Source: Candidatus Omnitrophota bacterium
Lineage (GTDB): Bacteria; Omnitrophota; Gorgyraeia; Zapsychrales; JANLHA01
NCBI GenBank assembly: GCA_963662715.1
Contig: OY759724.1
Coordinates: forward strand, 2,040,001-2,072,000
Length of the DNA stretch: 32,000 nt
Direction: 5' to 3'
Under the pieces are notes generated by a model. The model had not been told where the DNA came from and did not search any database. It saw only the letters and a list, made by a program, of their open reading frames with translations. The position numbers and the translations under genes are program-made. Positions 1 through 17,237 of the stretch are shown here, piece after piece; position 1 is the first letter of the stretch, and each line of letters begins with the position of its first letter.

Positions 1-1197
1 TGGATCAGAGATATCAAAGGATCCTACCCGCATATTTATTGTGTCGGAGGCGGCTGTCATATAACCTTGAATCCTCATGACGGCCTGGAGACATCTCTGG
101 ACGCCCTTTGCATCGGAGAGGGGGAATGGCCGATCCTGGAACTTGTGGAGCAACTGGATCAGGGACGCATTCCGCAGGGAATAAGTAATTTATGGATTAA
201 GCGGGACGGACAGGTTGAAAAGAACCGTATCCGTCCGTTTTTGGAAAACATTGATGATCTGCCGTTCCCGGACCGGGAGATGTGGCATCCCTGGACATTG
301 GATCTGGACAGCCGGCCGGCGGTTCTTTTAGGCCGCGGATGTCCTTTTCAATGCACGTACTGTTCAAATCATGCCTTAAAGAAACTGGCATCAGGCACGT
401 ATGTCCGCTGCCGTTCCGCGGAGAATATTATTGCCGAACTCAAAGAGATCACGTCCCGGCAGCCTTCCGCCAGGGAGGTTTACTTTGAGGTGGAAACATT
501 TAATGTGAATCTCCCCTGGGCTATCGGTTTGTGTGAAAGATTGGCAGAATTTAACCGGAAAAGGGACATCCCTCTGGAGTTTGGCGTGAACATCCGCGTC
601 ACGCCTAATACGGATTTTGCTTCGCTTTTTGCGGCCATGAAGAAGAGCCGGTTTTCTTTTATCAATATCGGGGTCGAATCCGGCAGCGAACGGATCCGCC
701 GGGATATTATGAAGCGGCGGTATTCCAACGACGATATTATGAAGACCGTTGCCCTGGCCCGGGAGCATGGATTAAAAGTGCATTTTTTGAACATGATCGG
801 TCTCCCGACGGAAACAGAGGAGGATATCCGTCAGACGATTGCTGTTAACCGTGCCTGCCAGCCGGATATGTGGCCGTCCCATTCGATTTTTTTCCCGTAC
901 CCCGGGACAGAAATTCACCGTATGTGCCGGGAAATGAATTTATTGCCCCCCCAGATGGATGTCGAACGGGAACGCTCCCGGGCCGTGCTTAATCTGGACG
1001 GGTTGTCAAAAAGCAGAATTATGCATTATTTTGTCTGGTTTGACTATTATGTTTATAAAGGTCACCGCCCTTTATGGAAACTGCTGGCCCGGGTTTTTGT
1101 GGCCCGGCTGCATTGCTCGTACCGGTTGATGCGTATTTACCGGGGGCTGACCGAACGGGGCGTTCTTAAAAAATTGAAGGAGTTTCTCAAAAAATAA
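1..1197 (+). CDS. B12-binding-domain radical SAM enzyme (class B), 5'-truncated by the window edge
   Basis: Frame 1 is open from nt 1: WIRDIKGSYPHIYCVGGGCHITLNPHD precedes the TTG at 67 used by the ORF track, so the gene starts upstream of the window. CxxxCxxC cluster motif GRGCPFQCTYCSN (Cys codons 340-363). GVESGSERIR motif. The GGGCH..GEGE segment is typical of the cobalamin-binding N-domain. Confidence 0.85.
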   Translation, partial: WIRDIKGSYPHIYCVGGGCHITLNPHDGLETSLDALCIGEGEWPILELVEQLDQGRIPQGISNLWIKRDGQVEKNRIRPFLENIDDLPFPDREMWHPWTLDLDSRPAVLLGRGCPFQCTYCSNHALKKLASGTYVRCRSAENIIAELKEITSRQPSAREVYFEVETFNVNLPWAIGLCERLAEFNRKRDIPLEFGVNIRVTPNTDFASLFAAMKKSRFSFINIGVESGSERIRRDIMKRRYSNDDIMKTVALAREHGLKVHFLNMIGLPTETEEDIRQTIAVNRACQPDMWPSHSIFFPYPGTEIHRMCREMNLLPPQMDVERERSRAVLNLDGLSKSRIMHYFVWFDYYVYKGHRPLWKLLARVFVARLHCSYRLMRIYRGLTERGVLKKLKEFLKK

Positions 1198-1199
1198 AC

Positions 1200-2363
1200 A
1201 TGGCGAACGAAACCAAAAGAAAAGTTATCCCTTACGGACGGCAAAGCATTTCCCAGGAAGATATCAAGGCTGTTGTAAATGTTTTGCGTTCGGACTGGAT
1301 CACTCAAGGGCCCAGGATTCAGGAATTTGAAAAGGCGCTGTGCCGTTATACGGGAGCGAAATACGCGGTTGCCGTGGCCAACGGAACCGCGGGCCTGCAC
1401 CTGGCCTGTTTAGCGGCCGGAGTCGGCCCCGGAGATGAAGTCATCACATCCCCGATGACTTTTTTGGCTTCTGCCAATTGTGTTTTATATTGCGGAGGGA
1501 CCCCGGTCTTTGCCGACATCCAGCCGGATACGGGGAATATCGACCCGGAGGAGATTGCTAAGAAAATCAGCGCAAGAACCAAAGCCGTTATTCCTGTACA
1601 TTTTGCCGGCCATCCCTGTGATTTGAAAGAGATCCGTCGCATGGCCAGGAAGCACAAACTGGTTGTGATTGAAGATGCCTGCCATGCGTTAGGGGCTGAA
1701 TACCAGGGGAAAAAGATCGGCGCCTGCCAGTATTCTGATATGACGGTCTTCAGCTTTCATCCGGTTAAGAGTATTACGACCGGGGAGGGAGGAGCCGTCT
1801 TAACGAATAATAAAAGGATGTATGAAAAACTTGTTCTATTGAGAAACCACGGGATGACGCGGGACAAGGCCAAAATTAAAAAGGGACAGGGGGACTGGTA
1901 TTGCGAAATGCAGGCGTTGGGATTTAATTACCGTATCACCGATATCCAGTGCGCCTTGGGTATAGGGCAGTTAAGCAGACTGGACCGGTTCCTGGCCAAA
2001 AGACGGCAGCTGGTTCAAGTCTATCAGAAGGCTTTGGCGGATACTTCGCACATTCAGCGTCCGGTTGAGCTCCCCGGGGGGCGTTCGGCCTGGCATATTT
2101 ATCCCGTTTTTATTCACCCCTCAAGCCTGAAGCCTGTTGTTTTCAAGAAATTAAAGGCGGCCGGAATCAGACCGCAGGTTCATTATATGCCGGTTTACTG
2201 GCATCCTTATTATTATTCCCTGGGGTACAGAAAAGGGTTATGCCCCGGGGCAGAAGAATTTTATCGCGCGGAAATCACGGTCCCGTTGTATCCTTCGTTG
2301 AAATTACGTGAGGTTCATTATGTTGTCCGGACGTTAAAAGATATCTTGGAAGAGGTGAGGTAA
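1200..2363 (+). CDS. pseC: DegT/DnrJ/EryC1-family PLP aminotransferase, PseC-like (UDP-4-amino-4,6-dideoxy-N-acetyl-beta-L-altrosamine transaminase)
   Basis: N-terminus IPYGRQSISQEDIKAVVNVLRSDWITQGPRIQEFE matches the PseC signature. PLP-lysine motif SFHPVKSITTGEGG. Sits in a pseC / cytidylyltransferase / pseG ... pseI gene order. Confidence 0.85.
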   Translation: MANETKRKVIPYGRQSISQEDIKAVVNVLRSDWITQGPRIQEFEKALCRYTGAKYAVAVANGTAGLHLACLAAGVGPGDEVITSPMTFLASANCVLYCGGTPVFADIQPDTGNIDPEEIAKKISARTKAVIPVHFAGHPCDLKEIRRMARKHKLVVIEDACHALGAEYQGKKIGACQYSDMTVFSFHPVKSITTGEGGAVLTNNKRMYEKLVLLRNHGMTRDKAKIKKGQGDWYCEMQALGFNYRITDIQCALGIGQLSRLDRFLAKRRQLVQVYQKALADTSHIQRPVELPGGRSAWHIYPVFIHPSSLKPVVFKKLKAAGIRPQVHYMPVYWHPYYYSLGYRKGLCPGAEEFYRAEITVPLYPSLKLREVHYVVRTLKDILEEVR

Positions 2364-3094
2364 TGAAAACAGTGGCTGTCATACAAGCCCGGATGAATTC
2401 TACCCGTCTGCCCGGGAAAGTCCTTATGGATATTGCCGGGCAGCCGATGCTGGCACATGTGGTCAGACGGTTGACACATAGCAGCCGGATTAATGAAATT
2501 GTCGTCGCTTTAACAACAGATACCGCTGATGATGTTGTGGAAATGTTTTGCCGGGACAGTAAAATCAAAATTTTTCGGGGGGAAAGTCATGACGTGTTGG
2601 ACCGTTATTATCAAACAGCCCGATCTTTTCAGGCGGATTGTATCGTCCGGATCACCTCAGACTGCCCTTTGATCGATCCTCAGGTCGTGGATCACGTTAT
2701 CCGTGAATTCAAAGATACTTCCGCTGCTCTGGACGGGGCCACGAATTGTCTTCGCCGGACATATCCTCGCGGACTCGACTGTGAAGTGTTCGGCTTTTCC
2801 GCCCTTGAGCGGTGCTGGAGACTGGCGGAGAAAGATTATTGCCGTGAGCATGTCACGATATATATGTATGAACATCCTGAGCTTTTTAAGATGAAAAATG
2901 TTGAATATAAGGAAGATTTGTCTTTTTACCGGTGGACCGTTGATGAAGAGCTTGATTTGAAATTGGTGCGGGAGATTTATCTGAGACTGAGATCGGCAAA
3001 GGAGATGTTTTTTATGCAGGATATTCTGGAGGTGTTTGAAAGAGACCCGGCCCTTAAACATATCAACGAACATGTCCTTCAGAAACACGTTTAG
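2363..3094 (+). CDS. SpsF/NeuA-family cytidylyltransferase (candidate CMP-nonulosonate synthetase)
   Basis: MKTVAVIQARMNSTRLPGKVL...RITSDCPLIDP is typical of CTP_transf_3 / SpsF-type cytidylyltransferases. TAATG overlap with pseC. Located between pseC and pseG. Confidence 0.7.
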   Translation: MKTVAVIQARMNSTRLPGKVLMDIAGQPMLAHVVRRLTHSSRINEIVVALTTDTADDVVEMFCRDSKIKIFRGESHDVLDRYYQTARSFQADCIVRITSDCPLIDPQVVDHVIREFKDTSAALDGATNCLRRTYPRGLDCEVFGFSALERCWRLAEKDYCREHVTIYMYEHPELFKMKNVEYKEDLSFYRWTVDEELDLKLVREIYLRLRSAKEMFFMQDILEVFERDPALKHINEHVLQKHV

Positions 3095-3106
3095 AGAAAT
3101 TTATTT

Positions 3107-4120
3107 ATGTCAGAACAGGTTTTGATTTTAACAGAAGGAGGAAAAGACGTCGGCCTGGGGCATCTGTCCCGATGCTCCGCCTTGTACCAGGCTTTTGCGC
3201 AGAAGGGCGCTTCTCCGGTCCTGGTGGTTAACGGAGAAGAACATATCCTGGATTTTATCCCTGGTTTGCAATGCCATATTCAGCCCTGGCTGGACAAAGA
3301 TGTCCTTTTGTCTTTATTGCAAGAAACGCCGGATATCGCGGTGGTCGATTCTTATTTAGCCGGGGAAGATCTTTATCAGATCATTGCGCGTAAGTGCAAG
3401 GTTGCCGTTTATATGGATGATAATAAACGTATGGATTATCCTCCGGGAATCGTGGTGAACAGCGCCGGAAACGCTGAGGCGTTGGGATATCCTCCCTGTC
3501 ACGATAAGGTTTATTTGTTAACAGAAAAATATGCGTTGTTAAGAGCCCCGTTTTGGCAAGACTCCCCCAGGAGAGCCGGACAGGCGCTTGAAACAATTTT
3601 GTTGACAATGGGTGGGAGTGACATGCGCAATCTGACTCCAAAGATTTTACAGGTTTTAACGCAGGAGTACCCGCAGGCGGAAAAGATTGTCATCGTGGGG
3701 CATGGGTTCAGCCGGCAGGAAACGATGTCATCATGGATCGATGATAGAACACAGATTGTACAATCTCCAGATGCGGAAGCTCTGAGAGCCTTGATGCTTC
3801 AGGCGGATATGGCTGTTTCCGCTGGCGGGCAGACATTATACGAACTGACACGGTGCGGGGTTCCGGCTTGTGTCGTATGTGTCGCGGATAATCAGGCGTC
3901 GCATATCTCCTGGTTTCAAGAGAAAGGTCTGGTAAAGGATTGCGGACGGTATGATGCTTCTAACCTATCAGCGCGTGTGCGGCAGGCCTTAGGAGAATTG
4001 GCTGATGAGGAGCTTCGCAGCCGGATTTCGGCGGCAGGCAGAAAGATTGTCGACGGCCGGGGCGCGTTACGCCTCGTGGACGAAATATTAAAATATTTGC
4101 CTCTGCAACAGCATTATTGA
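3107..4120 (+). CDS. pseG: PseG-like UDP-2,4-diacetamido-2,4,6-trideoxy-beta-L-altropyranose hydrolase (GT28-like fold)
   Basis: N-terminal GGKDVGLGHLSRCSALYQAF and C-terminal ADMAVSAGGQTLYELTRCGVPACVVCVADNQ match PseG family motifs. Pse gene context. Confidence 0.75.
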   Translation: MSEQVLILTEGGKDVGLGHLSRCSALYQAFAQKGASPVLVVNGEEHILDFIPGLQCHIQPWLDKDVLLSLLQETPDIAVVDSYLAGEDLYQIIARKCKVAVYMDDNKRMDYPPGIVVNSAGNAEALGYPPCHDKVYLLTEKYALLRAPFWQDSPRRAGQALETILLTMGGSDMRNLTPKILQVLTQEYPQAEKIVIVGHGFSRQETMSSWIDDRTQIVQSPDAEALRALMLQADMAVSAGGQTLYELTRCGVPACVVCVADNQASHISWFQEKGLVKDCGRYDASNLSARVRQALGELADEELRSRISAAGRKIVDGRGALRLVDEILKYLPLQQHY

Positions 4121-4149: not shown

Positions 4150-4791
4150 ATGGAAAAAGTCAAGATAGCTATATATGGCGCTTCCTTAGGGGGTGAGACC
4201 GTTAAAGAATGTCTTGCTCTGGAAGATACCTGTGATATTGCTTGTTTCCTGGATGATGACCCCCGGAAGTCGGGAATGGAATTTTGCGGTTTACCTATCC
4301 GGTCCTCGGATGATCTGGAGAAATTAAGCGCAGAGGGCGTGTCCCGGGTTGCCCTGGCCGTTGCCAATGCCTCGAAGAGACTGGAACTCCGGGGCCGGCT
4401 CATGGCATGCCGCCTGGAGCCGATGAATGTGATACATCCGCGCACTTATATAGCCCCGTCTGTAAAGATCGGGAAAGGAAACTATATTAAAGCCGGCGCG
4501 GTTATTGAGACAAATAGCACTGTTGGTGATTGCTGTATTATCGATAACGGTGTCATTGTCGCTCATGACAATGTCATTGAAGACGCCTGTCATCTTGCAC
4601 CGGGTGTCGTTTTGGGAAGCAGTATTGTGGTCGGATCAGGGAGCATTATCGGAATAGGGGCCAGTATATCAACAAAGATCCGTATCGGAAAAAATGTGAT
4701 TGTCAGCGTGGGAACCAGTGTCACCAGAGACGTTCCGGATAACAGTATTGTAGAAGGCGTTCCGGGAAAAATCATTGGAAGACGAAAATAA
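4150..4791 (+). CDS. NeuD/PglD-family left-handed beta-helix sugar N-/O-acyltransferase
   Basis: N-terminal Rossmann-like IAIYGASLGGETV..FLDDDP. C-terminal hexapeptide repeats (IGKGNYIKAGAVIETNSTVGDCCIIDNGVIVAHDNVIEDACHLAPGVVLGSSIVVGSGSIIGIGASI). Ending VEGVPGKIIG is typical of the NeuD/PglD family. Confidence 0.8.
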   Translation: MEKVKIAIYGASLGGETVKECLALEDTCDIACFLDDDPRKSGMEFCGLPIRSSDDLEKLSAEGVSRVALAVANASKRLELRGRLMACRLEPMNVIHPRTYIAPSVKIGKGNYIKAGAVIETNSTVGDCCIIDNGVIVAHDNVIEDACHLAPGVVLGSSIVVGSGSIIGIGASISTKIRIGKNVIVSVGTSVTRDVPDNSIVEGVPGKIIGRRK

Positions 4792-4847: not shown

Positions 4848-5765
4848 ATGATGAAAACAGAAGTGTTGTATGAAAAGATGTTGTTAATAAGGCTCTTCGA
4901 GGAGCAGGTGGGTCTTTTGTTTACCCGGGGAGATTTATTCGGGACGACACACGCCTGTATCGGGCAGGAAGCCGTTGCTGTGGGTGTTACGCAGGGGCTC
5001 CATCAAGATGATATCATCACGAGCAATCACCGCGGCCACGGCCATTATATTGCTTTCACCGGAGATGTCGAAGGCCTGCTGGCGGAACTGATGGGCAAAA
5101 AGACCGGAGTTTGCGCCGGTCGCAGCGGCAGCCAGCATTTGTGTTATAAAAATTTCTTTTCCAACGGAATAACCGGAGGCATGATCCCGGTGGCAACGGG
5201 CATGGCTTTGGCGGAAAAGAAAAAGAAGAGCGGAAAAATCGTTGTTTGTTTCTTGGGAGACGGTGCCTTGGGAGAAGGCCCGCTTTATGAGTCTTTGAAC
5301 ATGGCCTCTTTATGGGGGCTGCCGATTATTTTTGTTGTTGAGAATAACAGTTATGCCATGAGCACGCATATTTCCGAGGCCGTGGCCGGAAAGATTTTAG
5401 AGCGCGGGAAAGCCTTCTCGATCAAAACAGAAGAGTTTTATACTCAGGATGCCGGGAAAATTTTCTCCGGGTTTGAAAAAATTATCAGCCATGTCCGGAC
5501 ACAGGTTCAGCCGTATTTTTGTCTTTTTCATACATACCGGTTTTGCGGGCACAGCAAGAGCGATGATTGCTGTTACCGCGATAAGAATGAAGAACTGGAA
5601 TGGCGTAAGAAAGATCCGCTGCTTATTTTAGAACAGCGTTTAGAGCCGCAAACCGTAAAAAGGATTCAGGAAAAATGCCGCCGTCAAATTGAGGAAGCTT
5701 TAAGCCAGGCGGCGGAAGCTCCCTTTCCTGACCCGGCTTGCTTGTCTCAGGGATTATGGGGTTGA
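4848..5765 (+). CDS. ThDP-dependent 2-oxoacid dehydrogenase E1 component, alpha subunit
   Basis: ThDP motif GDGALGEGPLYESLNMASLWGLPIIFVVENNSYAM (GDG-x-NN). YRFCGHSKSD motif. N-terminal MLLIRLFEE..GTTHACIGQEA is typical of PdhA/AcoA. Confidence 0.85.
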   Translation: MMKTEVLYEKMLLIRLFEEQVGLLFTRGDLFGTTHACIGQEAVAVGVTQGLHQDDIITSNHRGHGHYIAFTGDVEGLLAELMGKKTGVCAGRSGSQHLCYKNFFSNGITGGMIPVATGMALAEKKKKSGKIVVCFLGDGALGEGPLYESLNMASLWGLPIIFVVENNSYAMSTHISEAVAGKILERGKAFSIKTEEFYTQDAGKIFSGFEKIISHVRTQVQPYFCLFHTYRFCGHSKSDDCCYRDKNEELEWRKKDPLLILEQRLEPQTVKRIQEKCRRQIEEALSQAAEAPFPDPACLSQGLWG

Positions 5766-5774
5766 GGAAGATGT

Positions 5775-6788
5775 ATGAAAACATTTGCGCAATCGATTAA
5801 TACCGCGTTGGAGGAAAAATTAGCTGAAGATCCCCGGGTGCTTTTGCTGGGCGAAGATCTCCGGGATCCTTACGGCGGTGCCTTTAAAATCACAAAAGGA
5901 CTGTCTTCCCGGTATCCGGACCGGGTTCTCAACACGCCGATGAGCGAGTTTTCATTAGCCGGAGTGGCTGCGGGGCTGGCCATACGGGGTTTGCGGCCGG
6001 TCTTGGAGATCATGTTCGGTGATTTTATGACATTTTGCGCGGATCAGCTGATCAACCATGCCGTGAAGTTTCGCTGGATGTACAACGGACAAGTGGATGT
6101 CCCGCTTGTGATCCGGACTCCCATGGGAGGGGGACGCGGTTACGGTCCGACCCACAGCCAGTCTCTGGAGAAGATTTTTATGGGCATTCCGGGGCTGAAG
6201 ATCATTGCTGCGAGTCATTTTCATGATGCCGGGACATTGTTAAAAGACGCTATTGATGACGACAATCCGGTTTTATTTATAGAACATAAACTTTTATATC
6301 CCCGTAAGATCGGCCAGCCGGTGGACGGTTACATTTCGGACTTTGCCGTTAAATTTTCTGACGGCAGGTATAAAACATTGAGATTATCTAACACGGACTT
6401 TGACGATCCTCAGCTTACGGTGCTTGTTTATGGCGGAATGTTGCCTTGGGTGACAGAGGCTGTTAATGAACTGCTCGTTGAAGAGGAGGTCGGAGCGGAG
6501 ATTGTTGTCCCGAGTTATATTAACCAATCTTTCATCCCGGAGATGATGGAATCCGTTAAGACAACAGGGAGGCTGGTGATTGTGGAAGAAGGGACTCTGT
6601 CGTTCGGCTGGGGGGCAGAAATGGCCGCCAGGATTGTGACACATGAAAGCATAGGGTCCTTGAAGGCGCCTGTCAGGCGGGTGGCCGCGAAAGATCTGCC
6701 TTTGGCGAATTCACGTGTTTTAGAAGAAGCCACATTGCCGCAGGTCAGGGATATCAAAAAGGCTGTTCAGGAGGTCTTAGCGTCATGA
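5775..6788 (+). CDS. 2-oxoacid dehydrogenase E1 component, beta subunit (transketolase-like Pyr + C domains)
   Basis: LLGEDLRDPYGGAFKITKGL...NTPMSEFSLAGVAAGLAIRGLRPVLEIMFGDF...GPTHSQSLE are classic PdhB/AcoB motifs. Lies 9 nt after the alpha subunit. Confidence 0.85.
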   Translation: MKTFAQSINTALEEKLAEDPRVLLLGEDLRDPYGGAFKITKGLSSRYPDRVLNTPMSEFSLAGVAAGLAIRGLRPVLEIMFGDFMTFCADQLINHAVKFRWMYNGQVDVPLVIRTPMGGGRGYGPTHSQSLEKIFMGIPGLKIIAASHFHDAGTLLKDAIDDDNPVLFIEHKLLYPRKIGQPVDGYISDFAVKFSDGRYKTLRLSNTDFDDPQLTVLVYGGMLPWVTEAVNELLVEEEVGAEIVVPSYINQSFIPEMMESVKTTGRLVIVEEGTLSFGWGAEMAARIVTHESIGSLKAPVRRVAAKDLPLANSRVLEEATLPQVRDIKKAVQEVLAS

Positions 6789-7222
6789 TACACGATATCC
6801 TTGTGCCGCAGTTGGGCGTTAATGATGAGTTCGTCACCATTGTTGAGTGGCGTGTTAACGACGGGGACAAAGTTGAGGTTGGGACGCCGTTATGCATCAT
6901 TGAGACAACGAAGGCGGTCGTAGACCTGTTAGCTGAAAATCCCGGGGTTATCGTCAGGATACGCTGTGAAAAGGAGCGGGTAGCCATAAAAGATCTTTTG
7001 GGATACATCGGCGATTCTTGGGAGGAGATCCAGCGCCTTATCCCGGAGAAACAGGCGACCGGAAAAAAGTCTGTGGGCGGCGAAGCCGATATTAAAGCCA
7101 CGCAGAAAGCCCGGGCCCTGGCTGAATCCCTGGGAGTGGATATCGGTCTGATTCTTAAGAAAGGGATCATCCGCGAAAAGGATGTGCAGGAATTTTATGC
7201 TTCCCGGCAAAAGGAATTTTAA
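6785..7222 (+). CDS. Stand-alone lipoyl-attachment domain + peripheral-subunit (E1/E3)-binding domain protein; E2 lacking its catalytic acyltransferase domain
   Basis: Lipoyl domain ILVPQLGVNDEFVTIVEWRVNDGDKVEVGTPLCIIETTKAVVDL (putative lipoyl-Lys in ETTKA). Linker. PSBD-like ATQKARALAESLGVDIGLILKKGIIREKDVQEFY. Only 145 aa, so there is no room for a 2-oxoacid_dh catalytic domain. ATGA overlap with E1 beta. Confidence 0.75.
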   Translation: MIHDILVPQLGVNDEFVTIVEWRVNDGDKVEVGTPLCIIETTKAVVDLLAENPGVIVRIRCEKERVAIKDLLGYIGDSWEEIQRLIPEKQATGKKSVGGEADIKATQKARALAESLGVDIGLILKKGIIREKDVQEFYASRQKEF

Positions 7223-7223
7223 G

Positions 7224-8279
7224 GTGAAAAGGACGAACGAGACAACCGGAAAAAGATTTTTTCACGAGGATAATTCGGTCTTTATTATCGCGGAGGTCTC
7301 TGCTAATCATGGGCAGGATTTTAAGCGGGCCGTCCAAATGATCAAGACGGCCAAAAAGTGCGGCGCGGATGCCGTGAAATTTCAGGCGTACACTCCTGAT
7401 ACGATGACGATGGACGTCAACACCCGTTATTTTCAGGTCCGTCATGCTCAATGGAGCGGACAGTCTTTGTATCAGCTGTATCAAAAGGCGTATACGCCTT
7501 TTGCATGGTTTAAGAAATTGAAAAAAGTGGCTGATGATATCGGTATTTTGTTTTTTGCCACGGCGTTTGATAAAACGGCCGTTGATTTGCTGGAAGAAAT
7601 CCGGGTGCCGGTACACAAGATTGCATCGTTTGAACTTAACGACATCCCTTTGATCCGGTACATGGCCAGGACGAAGAAGCCGCTGATATTATCCACGGGG
7701 ATGGCAACGCTGGCTGAGATTCAGGCGGCCGTTGATGCCGCCTGTCAAAACGGAACCCGTGATATATCTTTACTAAAATGTGTCAGTGATTACCCGGCTT
7801 CCCCGGAAGAGATGAATTTAGCGACCATCCCGGATATGAAAAAAAGATTTCCTGCCGTTATCGGCCTTTCGGACCATTCTTTGGGCATAGGGGTGTCTGT
7901 GGCCGGAGTATCGTTAGGGGCGAAGATTATTGAAAAGCATTTTACCCTTTCAAGAAAGCACAGGACGGCAGACAACTTTTTTTCCCTGGAGCCGGACGAG
8001 TTAAAGGATCTGGTGGATAATATACGGGTGGTAGAAAAGGCTGTGGGGCAGATTCATTACGGATTGACCAAAAAGGAAAAGGCGAGCCGAATTTACCGGC
8101 GTTCGTTGTTTGCGGTTCAGGATATTCGGAAAGGGGAGAAGCTGACCGAGCACAATGTGAGGTCGATCAGGCCTGCTTACGGTCTGGACCCCGAGGCTAT
8201 CGACGAGGTGCTGGACAAAACGGCCAGCAGGCATATCCGGAAAGGGGTTCCTTTAAGATGGGACATGATTGAAACATGA
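7224..8279 (+). CDS. pseI: Pseudaminic acid synthase (NeuB family, with C-terminal SAF domain)
   Basis: FIIAEVSANHGQDF...GADAVKFQAYT...AQWSGQSLYQLYQKAYTPFAWF...HKIASFELNDIPLI...GLSDHSLG...IIEKHFTL, then a SAF-like RRSLFAVQDIRKGEKLTEHNVRSIRP. Start is ambiguous: in-frame GTG at 7224 (right after the upstream stop, AAAGGAA upstream) versus the track ATG at 7182, which overlaps the upstream gene by 41 nt. Confidence 0.85.
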   Translation: MKRTNETTGKRFFHEDNSVFIIAEVSANHGQDFKRAVQMIKTAKKCGADAVKFQAYTPDTMTMDVNTRYFQVRHAQWSGQSLYQLYQKAYTPFAWFKKLKKVADDIGILFFATAFDKTAVDLLEEIRVPVHKIASFELNDIPLIRYMARTKKPLILSTGMATLAEIQAAVDAACQNGTRDISLLKCVSDYPASPEEMNLATIPDMKKRFPAVIGLSDHSLGIGVSVAGVSLGAKIIEKHFTLSRKHRTADNFFSLEPDELKDLVDNIRVVEKAVGQIHYGLTKKEKASRIYRRSLFAVQDIRKGEKLTEHNVRSIRPAYGLDPEAIDEVLDKTASRHIRKGVPLRWDMIET

Positions 8280-15626: not shown

Positions 15627-16531
15627 AAGTTTTTATAACAGGCGCAACGGGGTTCATCGGAAGGCACTTGACGGAAACGCTGATACGTCGTCATACCGGT
15701 GTTGTCGCGCTTGTCCGTCCGTCCACGGACGTTGATCTCCTGGTCCCGGGAACAACCTATTATTGTGACCAGGGGGACACTTCGGCTTTGGTGTCATATG
15801 TTCAGGAACAGAAATTTGACGGTATGATTCATTTGGCGTCCCTGTTCCTGCCGCAGCATAACCCGGGAGATGTTGAGCCTTTGATTCAGTCCAATATCAC
15901 GTTTGCCGCCAGGGTCCTTGAAGCGGCGGTACAGGCGGAGGTCCCCTGGTTTATTAACACGGGAACATTTTGGCAGCATTACCGTAATCAGGATTATAGC
16001 CCGGTGAATTTTTATGCGGCCACCAAACAGGCGTTTGAAGTGATAGCCCAGTATTATTTAGAGACAGCCGGAATTAATTTTGTTACTCTTAAACTTAATG
16101 ATACATTCGGCCCCGGTGACCGGCGGCCTAAAATATTCCACTCCTGGATGAAGATGGCCGAAAACGGGGAAGCCCTGGACATGTCCGGCGGGGAGCAGGT
16201 GATGGATGTCAGTTACATTGACAATGTTATTGATGCCTACGTTCAGATGGTAGACCTGCTGGCCCGGGATCAGGAACGGAAATTCAAAGGCCGGTCTTTT
16301 GCGGTCCGTTCCCAGGAAAGAATGACTTTAAAAGAGTTGGCCGCGGTTTTTGAAGAGGTCACCGGCAAATCCTTGAATATCCGCTGGGGACAACGCGACT
16401 ACCGTGAACGCGAGGTGTTTAATCCCTGGGATCAAGGGCCGACCGTCCCGGGCTGGCAGCCGAGGGTGTCGTTGCGGGAGGGTATTGTAAAGACATTCAA
16501 GCAAGGAGTTGAACATGATCATTATCGCTGA
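15623..16531 (+). CDS. NAD(P)-dependent SDR sugar-nucleotide 4-ketoreductase, RfbS/RfbJ/AscF-like
   Basis: MKVFITGATGFIGRHL (GxxGxxG), FYAATKQAF (YxxxK). Overall layout resembles CDP-paratose/abequose synthases. ATGA overlap with the epimerase gene. Confidence 0.8.
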   Translation: MKVFITGATGFIGRHLTETLIRRHTGVVALVRPSTDVDLLVPGTTYYCDQGDTSALVSYVQEQKFDGMIHLASLFLPQHNPGDVEPLIQSNITFAARVLEAAVQAEVPWFINTGTFWQHYRNQDYSPVNFYAATKQAFEVIAQYYLETAGINFVTLKLNDTFGPGDRRPKIFHSWMKMAENGEALDMSGGEQVMDVSYIDNVIDAYVQMVDLLARDQERKFKGRSFAVRSQERMTLKELAAVFEEVTGKSLNIRWGQRDYREREVFNPWDQGPTVPGWQPRVSLREGIVKTFKQGVEHDHYR

Positions 16532-17237
16532 AATAGGGATTAATCATAACGGAAACATTCATCTGGCCCACGAACTGATCAAACAGGCCAAATTATGCGG
16601 GGCGGATATCGCCAAATTTCAGTTTTATGATCCGGACAAGATTTTCGGCCCTAAAGGCGCCTACCCGGATAAAGATAATTACGAATTTGCATTGACGGTG
16701 CAGTTCGGTTTTGAGGAAGCGAAAAGGCTTAAGGCCTGGTGTGATGAGGAAGGCATAGAGTTCATGGCGTCTGTTTTTGACGAAGAGAGGTTTGAGTGGA
16801 TGGAGGCCCTGGGGATGAAAAGGTATAAGGTCGCCAGCCGCACCGTGCAGGAAGAGAGTCTTTGTAAAAGAATTTTTTCCACTCAAAAAGAAGTTTTCAT
16901 TTCTTTGGGATTCTGGGAGAATGCGGATGTGCCTTATGATTATGAGAACGCCAAATACCTTTATTGCGTGGCGAAATATCCGGCGGAATATAAGGACATC
17001 CATCTGCCGGTGTCTTTTAAAGCCACGCCCTATGACGGCTTCAGCGACCATACGATCGGCATTGAAGCCGCGCTTGTCGCTGTTGCCAGGGGCGCGAATA
17101 TTATCGAAAAGCATTTTACGCTAAATAAGGGCCTTGTCGGTCCGGATCATGTTTGCAGTGCGACTCCGGAAGAGCTGAGCATCTTGTGCCAGCAGTCGCG
17201 GGAGATGGAGAAATTTATTAATGTGGCCGAAGATTAG
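16515..17237 (+). CDS. NeuB-family (PEP-condensing sialic-acid-synthase-like) TIM-barrel protein lacking the C-terminal SAF domain
   Basis: MIIIAEIGINHNGNIHLAHELIKQAKLCGADIAKFQ...YKVASRTV...GFSDHTIG...IIEKHFTLNK. Only 240 aa and ends shortly after the barrel. AAGGAG at 16503-16508 lies 6 nt upstream of ATG 16515; the track's TTG at 16509 is less likely. Confidence 0.7.
   Translation: MIIIAEIGINHNGNIHLAHELIKQAKLCGADIAKFQFYDPDKIFGPKGAYPDKDNYEFALTVQFGFEEAKRLKAWCDEEGIEFMASVFDEERFEWMEALGMKRYKVASRTVQEESLCKRIFSTQKEVFISLGFWENADVPYDYENAKYLYCVAKYPAEYKDIHLPVSFKATPYDGFSDHTIGIEAALVAVARGANIIEKHFTLNKGLVGPDHVCSATPEELSILCQQSREMEKFINVAED

What the first reader, a model, noticed from the sequence alone, without database searches (positions are those of the whole stretch)
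6785..7222. E2 reduced to lipoyl domain + E1/E3-binding domain, with no catalytic core
The 145-aa product has a recognisable lipoyl domain (ETTKA lysine) and a shortened peripheral-subunit-binding domain, then stops. The next gene (pseI) begins within 2 nt, so the missing catalytic domain is not an assembly frameshift artefact visible here. A free lipoyl-PSBD protein would act as a mobile acyl/electron carrier that can still dock onto E1 beta and a housekeeping dihydrolipoamide dehydrogenase. The PSBD loop that usually reads G-T-G-x-G-G-R-I is shortened to KKGII. That change might alter partner specificity.
Basis: partly seen in the sequence, partly recalled or inferred. Interest (0 to 1): 0.62.

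Follow-up and report, generated by a model that had tools for sequence, protein, structure and literature searches.

The report
Free lipoyl carrier for sugar N-acylation
This small protein is the swinging lipoyl arm and docking domain of a pyruvate-dehydrogenase E2 with no core, and it most likely carries an acyl group from its own E1 enzyme to a sugar N-acyltransferase in a pseudaminic-acid operon, a use of lipoate I found in no paper of the searchable library.

Summary
ORF 6785-7222 (145 aa) is a lipoyl domain (Lys43 in ETTKA), a disordered linker and a peripheral-subunit-binding domain (PSBD) whose loop is three residues short. It then stops, and pseI follows at once.

It is not simply a decayed E2. 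Its closest relatives are the N-terminal 140 residues of proteins in which lipoyl+PSBD is fused to a NeuD/PglD-type sugar N-acyltransferase or, in another branch, to an E2 core. The window's separate NeuD-type gene (4150-4791) belongs to that fused clade: 98 of its 112 full-length relatives carry the lipoyl arm. E1 alpha/beta genes almost always lie next to these genes, mostly in nonulosonic-acid loci.

One metagenome contig repeats the window's split order (NeuD, E1a, E1b, 155-aa didomain, NeuB) at 52-66% identity. The genome has PseB, C, F, G and I, no PseH and no canonical E2. It does have LipA, an LplA-like ligase and Lpd.

Best reading: E1 loads an acyl group from a 2-oxoacid onto the lipoyl arm, and the NeuD-type enzyme puts it on the Pse precursor's 4-amine. 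This is inferred, not shown, and the acyl group is unknown.

Earlier notes of this scan reported the fused form in other genomes. This is the split form.

The parts
6785..7222 (+). Free-standing lipoyl + PSBD didomain protein (145 aa), the finding itself
   Evidence: 52% identical 155-aa orthologue in L043
6785..7015 (+). Lipoyl domain (residues 1-77)
   Evidence: PF00364 E=1.2e-12; pLDDT 95-98; Foldseek rmsd 1.5 A to 2dnc
6911..6913 (+). Codon of Lys43, the predicted lipoyl-lysine (ETTKA)
   Evidence: Invariant in 74 aligned family members; lies in the hairpin turn of the model
7016..7090 (+). Linker: short helix 79-85, then a disordered stretch (residues 91-100, pLDDT <50)
   Evidence: length varies among relatives
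7091..7213 (+). Peripheral-subunit-binding domain with a loop 3 residues short (KKGIIREKDV)
   Evidence: Family profile against PDB PSBDs, E=4.9e-8; 39/45 members hit PF02817; helices 107-116 and 131-143
4150..4791 (+). NeuD/PglB/VioB-family LbH sugar N-acyltransferase (213 aa), proposed acceptor-side enzyme
   Evidence: TIGR03570 at 177 bits, over cut-off; best PDB match is PerB; His138 aligns with the PerB histidine that reads Asn in entry 4eaa; 98/112 full-length relatives carry an N-terminal lipoyl domain
4848..5765 (+). ThDP-dependent E1 alpha
   Evidence: PF00676 E=2.5e-56; nearest solved structure is human PDH E1 alpha, E=3e-44; 63% identical to L043 E1a
5775..6788 (+). E1 beta; its stop overlaps the didomain's start codon
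   Evidence: PF02779+PF02780; His127 aligns with human beta-His128; 66% identical to L043 E1b
7224..8279 (+). PseI (pseudaminic acid synthase); alternative in-frame ATG starts at 7182 and 7197
   Evidence: TIGR03586 at 453 bits, over cut-off
1200..4120 (+). DegT aminotransferase (PseC-like, 1200-2363), CMP-sugar cytidylyltransferase (PseF-like, 2363-3094) and PseG-like hydrolase (3107-4120)
   Evidence: PseB lies just upstream of the window (G000:C1:2038762-2039745, 497 bits)

Best explanation
The 145-aa protein is the acyl carrier of a four-gene module: a NeuD-type N-acyltransferase, E1 alpha, E1 beta and the lipoyl-PSBD didomain. The module fills the PseH step of a pseudaminic-acid pathway.

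Proposed cycle:
1. The didomain is lipoylated on Lys43 by the cell's LplA-like ligase and LipA.
2. Its PSBD docks it on the E1 alpha2-beta2 tetramer.
3. E1 decarboxylates a small 2-oxoacid. Its identity is unknown. E1 alpha is closest to pyruvate-type E1.
4. E1 reductively acylates the lipoyl group.
5. The trimeric LbH N-acyltransferase takes the acyl group from S-acyl-dihydrolipoyl-Lys43 and puts it on the 4-amino group of UDP-4-amino-4,6-dideoxy-beta-L-AltNAc. No acyl-CoA is involved.
6. The housekeeping Lpd re-oxidises the dihydrolipoyl arm.

Shown here: the domain make-up, the gene neighbourhood, the fusion of the two partners in most relatives, a conserved split copy elsewhere, the absence of PseH and of an E2 core, and the presence of lipoylation genes and Lpd.

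Inferred: every chemical step, the direct CoA-free transfer, the docking partners and the acyl group.
For: Fusion evidence:
- The best full-length matches of the didomain are the N-termini of lipoyl-PSBD-PglD_N-Hexapep proteins.
- The window's separate NeuD-type protein is 45-63% identical to about 100 such fusions, but only 32-38% identical to ordinary stand-alone NeuD/PglD proteins.

Neighbourhood:
- E1 alpha/beta lie next to the fusion or didomain in L026, L028, L033, L035-L037, L039, L041, L043-L045 and L048.
- Most of these loci with enough flank also carry NeuB, DegT and cytidylyltransferase genes.

Split form conserved:
- L043 has the same order: NeuD, E1a, E1b, a 155-aa didomain, NeuB. 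Identities to the window are 66, 63, 66 and 52%.
- L048 and L047 are two further free didomains that end at real stop codons.

Pathway logic:
- PseB (497 bits), PseI (453 bits), PseC-, PseF- and PseG-like genes are present.
- No PseH is found in the genome; the best match scores 20 bits against a cut-off of 93.

Cofactor supply:
- LipA, an LplA-like ligase in the gcv operon, GcvH and Lpd are present. There is no canonical E2.

Catalytic residues:
- E1 beta His127 aligns with the histidine proposed as general acid in reductive acetylation.
- NeuD His138 aligns with the PerB histidine that is mutated in 4eaa.

Precedent:
- QncN/QncL/QncM use an E1-like enzyme, a lipoyl arm and an acyltransferase to feed a biosynthetic acceptor.
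- In L029 a lipoyl-PSBD-E2core relative sits beside an ACP.
Against: - There is no biochemical evidence of any kind.
- Lipoylation of Lys43 has not been shown.
- Known NeuD/PglD/PerB enzymes use acyl-CoA. Nothing here shows that this clade accepts a lipoyl thioester.
- In the split form the arm is not tethered to the transferase, so direct transfer needs a transient encounter.
- The cassette has no E3 of its own.
- E1 pairs without any lipoyl partner occur twice more in glycan loci of this genome. E1 in a glycan locus therefore need not imply lipoyl chemistry.
- The beta-histidine is conserved in those pairs too, so it does not discriminate.
- Why a cell would make an acetyl donor from pyruvate when acetyl-CoA is at hand is unexplained, unless the acyl group is not acetyl.
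Confidence: 0.62

Rival explanations
1. A CoA-coupled mini-dehydrogenase. E1 and the lipoyl arm make an acyl-lipoyl intermediate that is first passed to CoA. The transfer would be done by the LbH enzyme itself, by the orphan E2-core-like protein at G000:C1:1925374-1926213, or without an enzyme. The NeuD-type enzyme then uses acyl-CoA in the ordinary way. The module would be a local supplier of an unusual acyl-CoA.
For: - All solved relatives of the NeuD-type enzyme are acyl-CoA users.
- The genome holds a stand-alone 279-aa protein with the E2 motif DHDVIDG.
- Like the cassette, that protein was not found in the close relatives searched.
Against: - The orphan core lies 114 kb away and has no PSBD or lipoyl domain.
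- It has no orthologue in 400 genomes of the phylum. That sample includes the eight other genomes with a lipoyl-PSBD family match.
- Physical fusion of the arm to the LbH domain in about 100 relatives argues that the arm reaches that active site.
- A real E2 core is kept in the branch that serves ACPs, so it was available if CoA or ACP transfer were needed.
Confidence: 0.17
2. C-C bond chemistry. As with AviB1/AviB2-type E1 pairs, the E1 adds a two-carbon unit from pyruvate to a keto-sugar. The lipoyl protein would then be only a redox or regulatory accessory.
For: - Two other E1 alpha/beta pairs of this genome sit in sugar loci with no lipoyl protein.
- Other agents of this scan read one of them this way.
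Against: - Those pairs are only 32-34% identical to the window's E1.
- The window's E1 beta shares an insertion and motifs with the E1 betas that accompany lipoyl proteins.
- Branch-forming E1 pairs need no lipoyl arm.
- Here the arm is conserved, coupled to E1 beta by an ATGA overlap, and fused to an N-acyltransferase in relatives.
Confidence: 0.06
3. A decaying remnant of an E2 gene, or of a fusion gene, with no present function.
For: The protein is short, it lacks any catalytic domain, and its PSBD scores below the Pfam cut-off.
Against: - The frame is intact, and the start overlaps the E1 beta stop.
- Lys43 and the family's invariant residues are kept.
- A 52%-identical orthologue of the same length sits in the same gene order in L043.
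- Independent free didomains occur in L047 and L048.
- The model is confident.
Confidence: 0.04
4. A biotin carrier rather than a lipoyl carrier.
For: PF00364 covers both kinds of domain. Weak BCCP matches exist (E about 1e-3).
Against: - The motif is ETTKA, not the biotinyl (A/V)MKM (from my own knowledge).
- The top sequence and fold matches are E2 lipoyl domains.
- A PSBD follows the domain, and the partner is an E1.
- No carboxylase genes are nearby.
Confidence: 0.02

Closest known systems
E2 (dihydrolipoyl acyltransferase) of 2-oxoacid dehydrogenase complexes with heterotetrameric E1 (e.g. Geobacillus stearothermophilus PDH), and the laboratory-made E2 'di-domain' of lipoyl domain + linker + PSBD
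   Same: Same N-terminal architecture: lipoyl domain, flexible linker, PSBD. It is encoded directly after E1 alpha and E1 beta. The lipoyl-lysine motif and the fold are the same. The natural protein matches the di-domain construct used to study E1 binding (PMC2663715).
   Different: There is no catalytic core, so no 24- or 60-mer scaffold and no CoA acyl acceptor site. The PSBD loop is 3 residues shorter. No E3 is encoded with it. It sits in a glycan operon, not in central metabolism.
Lipoyl-PSBD-NeuD/PglD fusion proteins, annotated only as 'NeuD/PglB/VioB family sugar acetyltransferase' or 'biotin/lipoyl attachment protein'; I found no publication on them
   Same: The didomain is homologous (35-48% identity). 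The window's NeuD-type enzyme is 45-63% identical to their C-terminal halves. The partners are the same E1 alpha/beta, and the setting is the same nonulosonic-acid loci.
   Different: Here the arm and the transferase are separate polypeptides, encoded at the two ends of the E1 gene pair. The arm is therefore not tethered to the trimeric transferase.
QncN/QncL/QncM (quinocarcin), NapB/NapD and SclQ1-4: an E1/transketolase-like enzyme + lipoyl-acyltransferase + ACP that make a C2 glycolicacyl unit (Peng et al. 2012, PMC3365175, as described in PMC7570522 and bioRxiv 10.1101/265645)
   Same: A ThDP enzyme loads a lipoyl arm, and the acyl group goes to a biosynthetic acceptor rather than to CoA for catabolism. 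A relative of the window's didomain with an E2 core lies beside an ACP gene (L029).
   Different: Those systems keep an E2-type catalytic domain and deliver to an ACP. The window has neither an E2 core nor an ACP. The proposed acceptor is an amino sugar, reached through an LbH enzyme. The window's E1 alpha is a true E1_dh family member.
PseH (GNAT) and PglD/PerB/NeuD (LbH) acetyl-CoA-dependent amino-sugar N-acetyltransferases
   Same: The NeuD-type partner has the PglD_N + LbH architecture and a conserved histidine. The module occupies the PseH step of the pathway.
   Different: Canonical enzymes work alone with acetyl-CoA. This clade comes with E1 alpha/beta and a lipoyl arm.

Membership tests
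Lipoyl attachment domain (PF00364, E2-type) | Sequence match above the curated threshold | tested here: met
   47.9 bits against a cut-off of 22.1, E=1.2e-12
Lipoyl attachment domain (PF00364, E2-type) | Flattened beta-barrel with the modified lysine at the tip of a hairpin | tested here: met
   AF2 pLDDT 95-98; Lys43 lies between strands 35-40 and 45-49; Foldseek rmsd 1.5 A to 2dnc and 3crk
Lipoyl attachment domain (PF00364, E2-type) | Lysine actually carries lipoate | not testable with these tools
   The genome has LipA, an LplA-like ligase and GcvH. The modification itself needs mass spectrometry.
Peripheral-subunit-binding domain (PF02817) | Single-sequence match above the Pfam gathering score | tested here: not met
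   12.2-15.5 bits against a cut-off of 23.7
Peripheral-subunit-binding domain (PF02817) | Homology to solved PSBDs at profile level, with a two-helix fold | tested here: met
   Family profile against 1w4i E=4.9e-8 and 2eq8 E=5.6e-6; 39/45 members hit PF02817; helices 107-116 and 131-143
Peripheral-subunit-binding domain (PF02817) | Canonical G-T-G-x-G-G-R-I loop | tested here: not met
   A 3-residue deletion in every alignment to solved PSBDs; the family consensus is kkGiIREkDV
Peripheral-subunit-binding domain (PF02817) | Binds E1 and/or E3 | not testable with these tools
   Needs a binding assay or a complex model
E2 dihydrolipoyl acyltransferase | C-terminal 2-oxoacid_dh catalytic domain with the DHRxxDG motif | tested here: not met
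   The ORF ends at residue 145, and pseI follows. PF00198 is absent from the window.
Lipoyl-PSBD-NeuD fusion family (undescribed) | Didomain homologous over its full length to the N-terminus of the fusions | tested here: met
   Matches cover query residues 1-140 in P0008, P0017, P0020, P0157-P0162 and others
Lipoyl-PSBD-NeuD fusion family (undescribed) | Arm covalently fused to the LbH acyltransferase | tested here: not met
   The genes are separate, at 6785-7222 and 4150-4791. The same split occurs in L043.
Lipoyl-PSBD-NeuD fusion family (undescribed) | Cognate NeuD-type enzyme belongs to the lipoyl-associated clade | tested here: met
   98 of 112 full-length relatives are fused. The ingroup is separated from ordinary NeuD proteins with SH-aLRT 99.
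Lipoyl-PSBD-NeuD fusion family (undescribed) | Adjacent E1 alpha/beta | tested here: met
   Window 4848-6788; also in L026, L028, L033, L035-37, L039, L041, L043-45 and L048
QncN/L/M-type lipoyl-dependent extender-unit system | E2-type acyltransferase domain and an ACP acceptor | tested here: not met
   No PF00198 and no PF00550 in the window

The most novel reading that the evidence does not exclude
Lipoate serves here as a CoA-independent acyl donor for glycan biosynthesis. A diffusible lipoyl-PSBD protein acts like an acyl carrier protein. It shuttles an acyl group made by E1 from a 2-oxoacid, possibly a non-acetyl group for which the cell has no CoA thioester, straight to a trimeric LbH transferase. 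That enzyme N-acylates a UDP-amino sugar and so yields a pseudaminic acid with an unusual N7 acyl group. The split form would also be a natural two-piece version of the system, ready for reconstitution.
Probability: 0.45. Interest if true: 0.82.

Novelty: new variant of a known kind. Interest (0 to 1): 0.68.

Why it matters
Lipoyl arms are known almost only from central metabolism: the 2-oxoacid dehydrogenases, acetoin dehydrogenase and glycine cleavage. A few natural-product systems also use one.

If this module works as proposed, bacteria in many phyla decorate surface nonulosonic acids with acyl groups taken directly from 2-oxoacids. That would be a new role for lipoate and a new way of diversifying N-acyl groups on pseudaminic and legionaminic acids. 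The origin of the unusual N-acyl groups on these sugars is an acknowledged open problem (PMC5378307).

The split form found here gives separate, small, expressible parts: E1, the didomain carrier and the transferase. That makes the hypothesis directly testable in vitro.

Tried and rejected
- The word-index homologue search with the 145-aa protein found only one relative. The exhaustive HMMER search was needed.
- The search for related loci with a 23-row alignment had no usable conserved stretch. With 6 rows it gave a single locus.
- I tried to show that the split form derives from a fused ancestor.
  - The quick ML tree nests the window clade inside fused proteins (SH-aLRT 91-93).
  - The AU test does not reject placing that clade next to the ordinary stand-alone outgroup (p=0.77), and the constrained tree scored 17 lnL higher.
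  - The direction of the event is therefore unresolved, and I do not claim fission.
- E1 beta His127, the equivalent of H128beta, is also conserved in the genome's two lipoyl-less E1 pairs. It does not discriminate.
- The orphan E2-core-like ORF at 1925374 was considered as a trans-acting core. It has no orthologue in 400 phylum genomes or in 25 relatives, so co-occurrence could not be tested.
I could not check reads or transcripts over the stop codon.
- Six literature searches found no paper on a lipoyl/NeuD or E1/pseudaminic-acid system. The library lacks most subscription journals.
- The substrate of E1 could not be inferred from sequence.
Full report
WHAT IS THERE

ORF 6785-7222 on the + strand encodes 145 aa. 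Its ATG overlaps the stop of the preceding E1 beta gene (ATGA at 6785-6788). Its TAA stop is at 7220-7222. The PseI frame follows, with a GTG at 7224 and in-frame ATGs at 7182 and 7197. There is no room for a catalytic domain, and no frameshift could supply one.

- Residues 4-67 match Pfam Biotin_lipoyl at E=1.2e-12.
- The best NCBIfam and PDB sequence matches are E2 and protein-X lipoyl domains.
- An AlphaFold2 model built on 74 aligned relatives has mean pLDDT 87. It shows a beta-barrel over residues 1-77 (pLDDT 95-98), with Lys43 of ETTKA in the hairpin turn. A short helix and a disordered linker follow (residues 91-100, pLDDT <50). The model ends in two helices (107-116 and 131-143).
- Foldseek puts full-length E2 models first, then isolated lipoyl domains at rmsd about 1.5 A.

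THE PSBD

Alone, the C-terminal part is below the Pfam threshold for E3_binding (12-15 bits against a cut-off of 23.7). I therefore cut the homologous 47 residues from 45 relatives.

- The profile hits solved PSBDs: 1w4i at E=4.9e-8, 2eq8 at E=5.6e-6 and 6zzl at E=7.6e-6.
- Each alignment shows a 3-residue deletion where canonical domains read G-T-G-x-G-G.
- 39 of the 45 members hit PF02817.

It is a trait of the whole family, whose consensus is ATxKAxxLAxxLGxDLxxIxxxGIIREKDV. It is not a peculiarity of this gene.

WHO ITS RELATIVES ARE

An exhaustive HMMER search of 1.84 billion representatives gave 239 hits at E<=1e-10. Most of the best ones align over query residues 1-140 and are the N-termini of longer proteins.

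- Pfam shows these to be lipoyl + PglD_N + Hexapep proteins (P0008, P0017, P0020 and others). In another branch they are lipoyl + 2-oxoacid_dh proteins such as P0006.
- Among the 151 proteins listed, 45 carry a domain like the window's own NeuD-type protein, with E-values down to 1e-71. Another 49 carry an E2 core.

I then searched in the opposite direction, starting from the window's NeuD-type protein (4150-4791; TIGR03570 at 177 bits).

- Nearly all of the best 120 hits are 355-373-aa proteins with PF00364 at the N-terminus, at 45-63% identity.
- Ordinary stand-alone NeuD/PglD proteins appear only at 32-38% identity.
- Of the 112 full-length relatives used for the tree, 98 are fused.

This is a Rosetta-stone link between the two window genes.

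NEIGHBOURHOOD

- In L026 the order is cytidylyltransferase, a 317-aa gene, E1a, E1b, the fusion, then NeuB.
- In Azospirillum fermentarium (L044) the order is PseB-like, DegT, NeuB, E1a, E1b, the fusion, then cytidylyltransferase.
- In L045 the order is NeuB, the fusion, E1a, E1b.
- L033 from a Pseudomonadales MAG is similar.
- Of eight other genomes with a match among 400 sampled from the phylum, six show E1 beta beside the lipoyl gene. All eight have long open frames of 361-540 aa.
- No match was found in the three genomes of the same genus that were searched.

THE SPLIT FORM IS CONSERVED

- Contig L043 has NeuD (212 aa), E1a, E1b, a 155-aa lipoyl protein and NeuB, in the window's order. Identities to the window are 66, 63, 66 and 52%. 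The didomain ends at the same place.
- In L048, E1b is followed by a 155-aa didomain, an ATP-grasp gene and a NeuD-like gene.
- In L047, E1b is followed by a 159-aa didomain and a formyltransferase-like gene. Both didomains end at real stop codons.

The free didomain is therefore a maintained gene. It is not an assembly artefact or a pseudogene.

DIRECTION OF THE SPLIT

A quick ML tree of the NeuD domain puts the window and P0153-P0155 in one stand-alone clade (SH-aLRT 93). That clade sits beside fused proteins and inside the fused group.

The AU test does not reject a tree in which this clade sits next to the ordinary stand-alone outgroup (p=0.77). The constrained tree even scored 17 lnL higher. 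Whether the split is derived or ancestral is open.

THE GENOME

The window lies in a single 3.36-Mb contig.

- PseB (497 bits) is two genes upstream of pseC.
- PseI passes its cut-off. PseG-like and PseF-like genes are present.
- No PseH is found anywhere. The best match scores 20 bits against a cut-off of 93.
- The module NeuD-E1a-E1b-didomain lies between pseG and pseI.
- Lipoylation genes exist: LipA (337 bits), a 234-aa LplA-like ligase at the end of the gcvT-H-PA-PB operon, and GcvH.
- One true Lpd (502 bits) stands alone at 340426-341859.
- The genome has no canonical E2.
- Besides this protein, PF00364 finds two small carrier proteins that I did not examine (open frames of 155 and 86 aa) and one weak match.
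- No ACP lies in the window.

MECHANISM (INFERRED)

E1 alpha is a genuine E1_dh member, closest to human PDH E1 alpha. E1 beta keeps the histidine equivalent to H128beta, the proposed general acid of reductive acetylation. The NeuD-type enzyme keeps the histidine that aligns with the PerB residue changed in entry 4eaa.

In the fusions the order lipoyl-PSBD-LbH copies the E2 order lipoyl-PSBD-core. From my own knowledge, both LbH enzymes and E2 cores are trimers. The simplest reading has five steps:
1. The PSBD docks on E1.
2. E1 loads an acyl group from a 2-oxoacid onto lipoyl-Lys43.
3. The arm delivers the acyl group to the LbH active site.
4. The 4-amine of the UDP-sugar is acylated.
5. Lpd re-oxidises the arm.

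In the window the arm is a separate protein, the natural counterpart of the E2 'di-domain' used in vitro.

The acyl group is unknown. Acetyl-CoA is available to any cell, so a non-acetyl group is plausible but untested.

RIVALS

- A CoA-coupled version cannot be excluded, in which acyl-lipoyl is passed to CoA and then on to the sugar. All solved relatives of the transferase use acyl-CoA. The genome also has an orphan E2-core-like ORF with DHDVIDG. That ORF lies 114 kb away and has no orthologue in the phylum sample.
- The AviB-type C-C branching role fits the genome's two other E1 pairs, which lack lipoyl partners. Those pairs are only 32-34% identical to the window's E1 and lack its family-specific insertion.
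- Decay and biotinylation are unlikely, for the reasons given under the rival explanations.

WHAT IS KNOWN

Six full-text searches found no description of a lipoyl arm joined to a sugar N-acyltransferase, or of E1 genes in pseudaminic or legionaminic acid pathways. Public records annotate the fusions only as NeuD-family acetyltransferases or as biotin/lipoyl attachment proteins.

The nearest published logic is QncN/QncL/QncM and their homologues, where a ThDP enzyme and a lipoyl-acyltransferase load an ACP. A relative with that layout exists in L029.

Earlier AI notes of this scan describe the fused form in several other genomes and reach a similar reading. I found the fusion independently, before reading those notes. 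They are not independent evidence. This report adds the split form.

LIMITS

- No multimer modelling was possible.
- The literature library is incomplete.
One 65%-identical partial homologue carries that name.

Noticed in passing
outside the window: G000:C1:1685308-1687372 and G000:C1:654667-656718: Two further E1 alpha/beta pairs sit in other sugar-nucleotide loci of the same genome, with no lipoyl protein nearby. They are 32-34% identical to the window's pair. They may be C2-branching enzymes of the AviB1/B2 type.
   Followed up: partly
outside the window: G000:C1:1925374-1926213: An orphan 279-aa protein consists only of an E2-like catalytic domain (motif DHDVIDG), with no lipoyl domain or PSBD. 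No orthologue was found in 25 relatives or in 400 genomes of the phylum.
   Followed up: partly
L029:582-2490: A 361-aa lipoyl-PSBD-E2core relative is followed by a 75-aa ACP and a GNAT. This looks like a compact QncL/QncM-like acyl-loading system.
   Followed up: no
L028:2266-3759 (P0003), also P0009, P0015, P0018: A roughly 500-aa class has lipoyl-PSBD joined to a longer, different LbH region. It also lies directly after E1 alpha/beta. Its function is unknown.
   Followed up: no
L048:919-3227: Another split arrangement: E1 beta, a 155-aa didomain, an ATP-grasp ligase and a 207-aa NeuD-like gene. The ATP-grasp gene may add an amino-acyl group.
   Followed up: no
window 16509-17237: A second, short NeuB-like ORF (242 aa) lies in the same island. 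I did not scan it for domains.
   Followed up: no
window 1-1197 (gene starts at G000:C1:2039752): A B12-binding radical SAM gene is inserted between pseB and pseC. L026 and L043 also carry B12-radical SAM genes beside the E1/lipoyl module.
   Followed up: no
window 5775-6788 and loci L026, L043, L044, L045: E1 beta subunits that accompany lipoyl-PSBD proteins share an insertion of about 12 residues (window SNTDFDDPQLT). They also share the motifs EIMFGDF and PMGGxRGYGPTHSQ. The genome's lipoyl-less E1 betas lack these features.
   Followed up: partly
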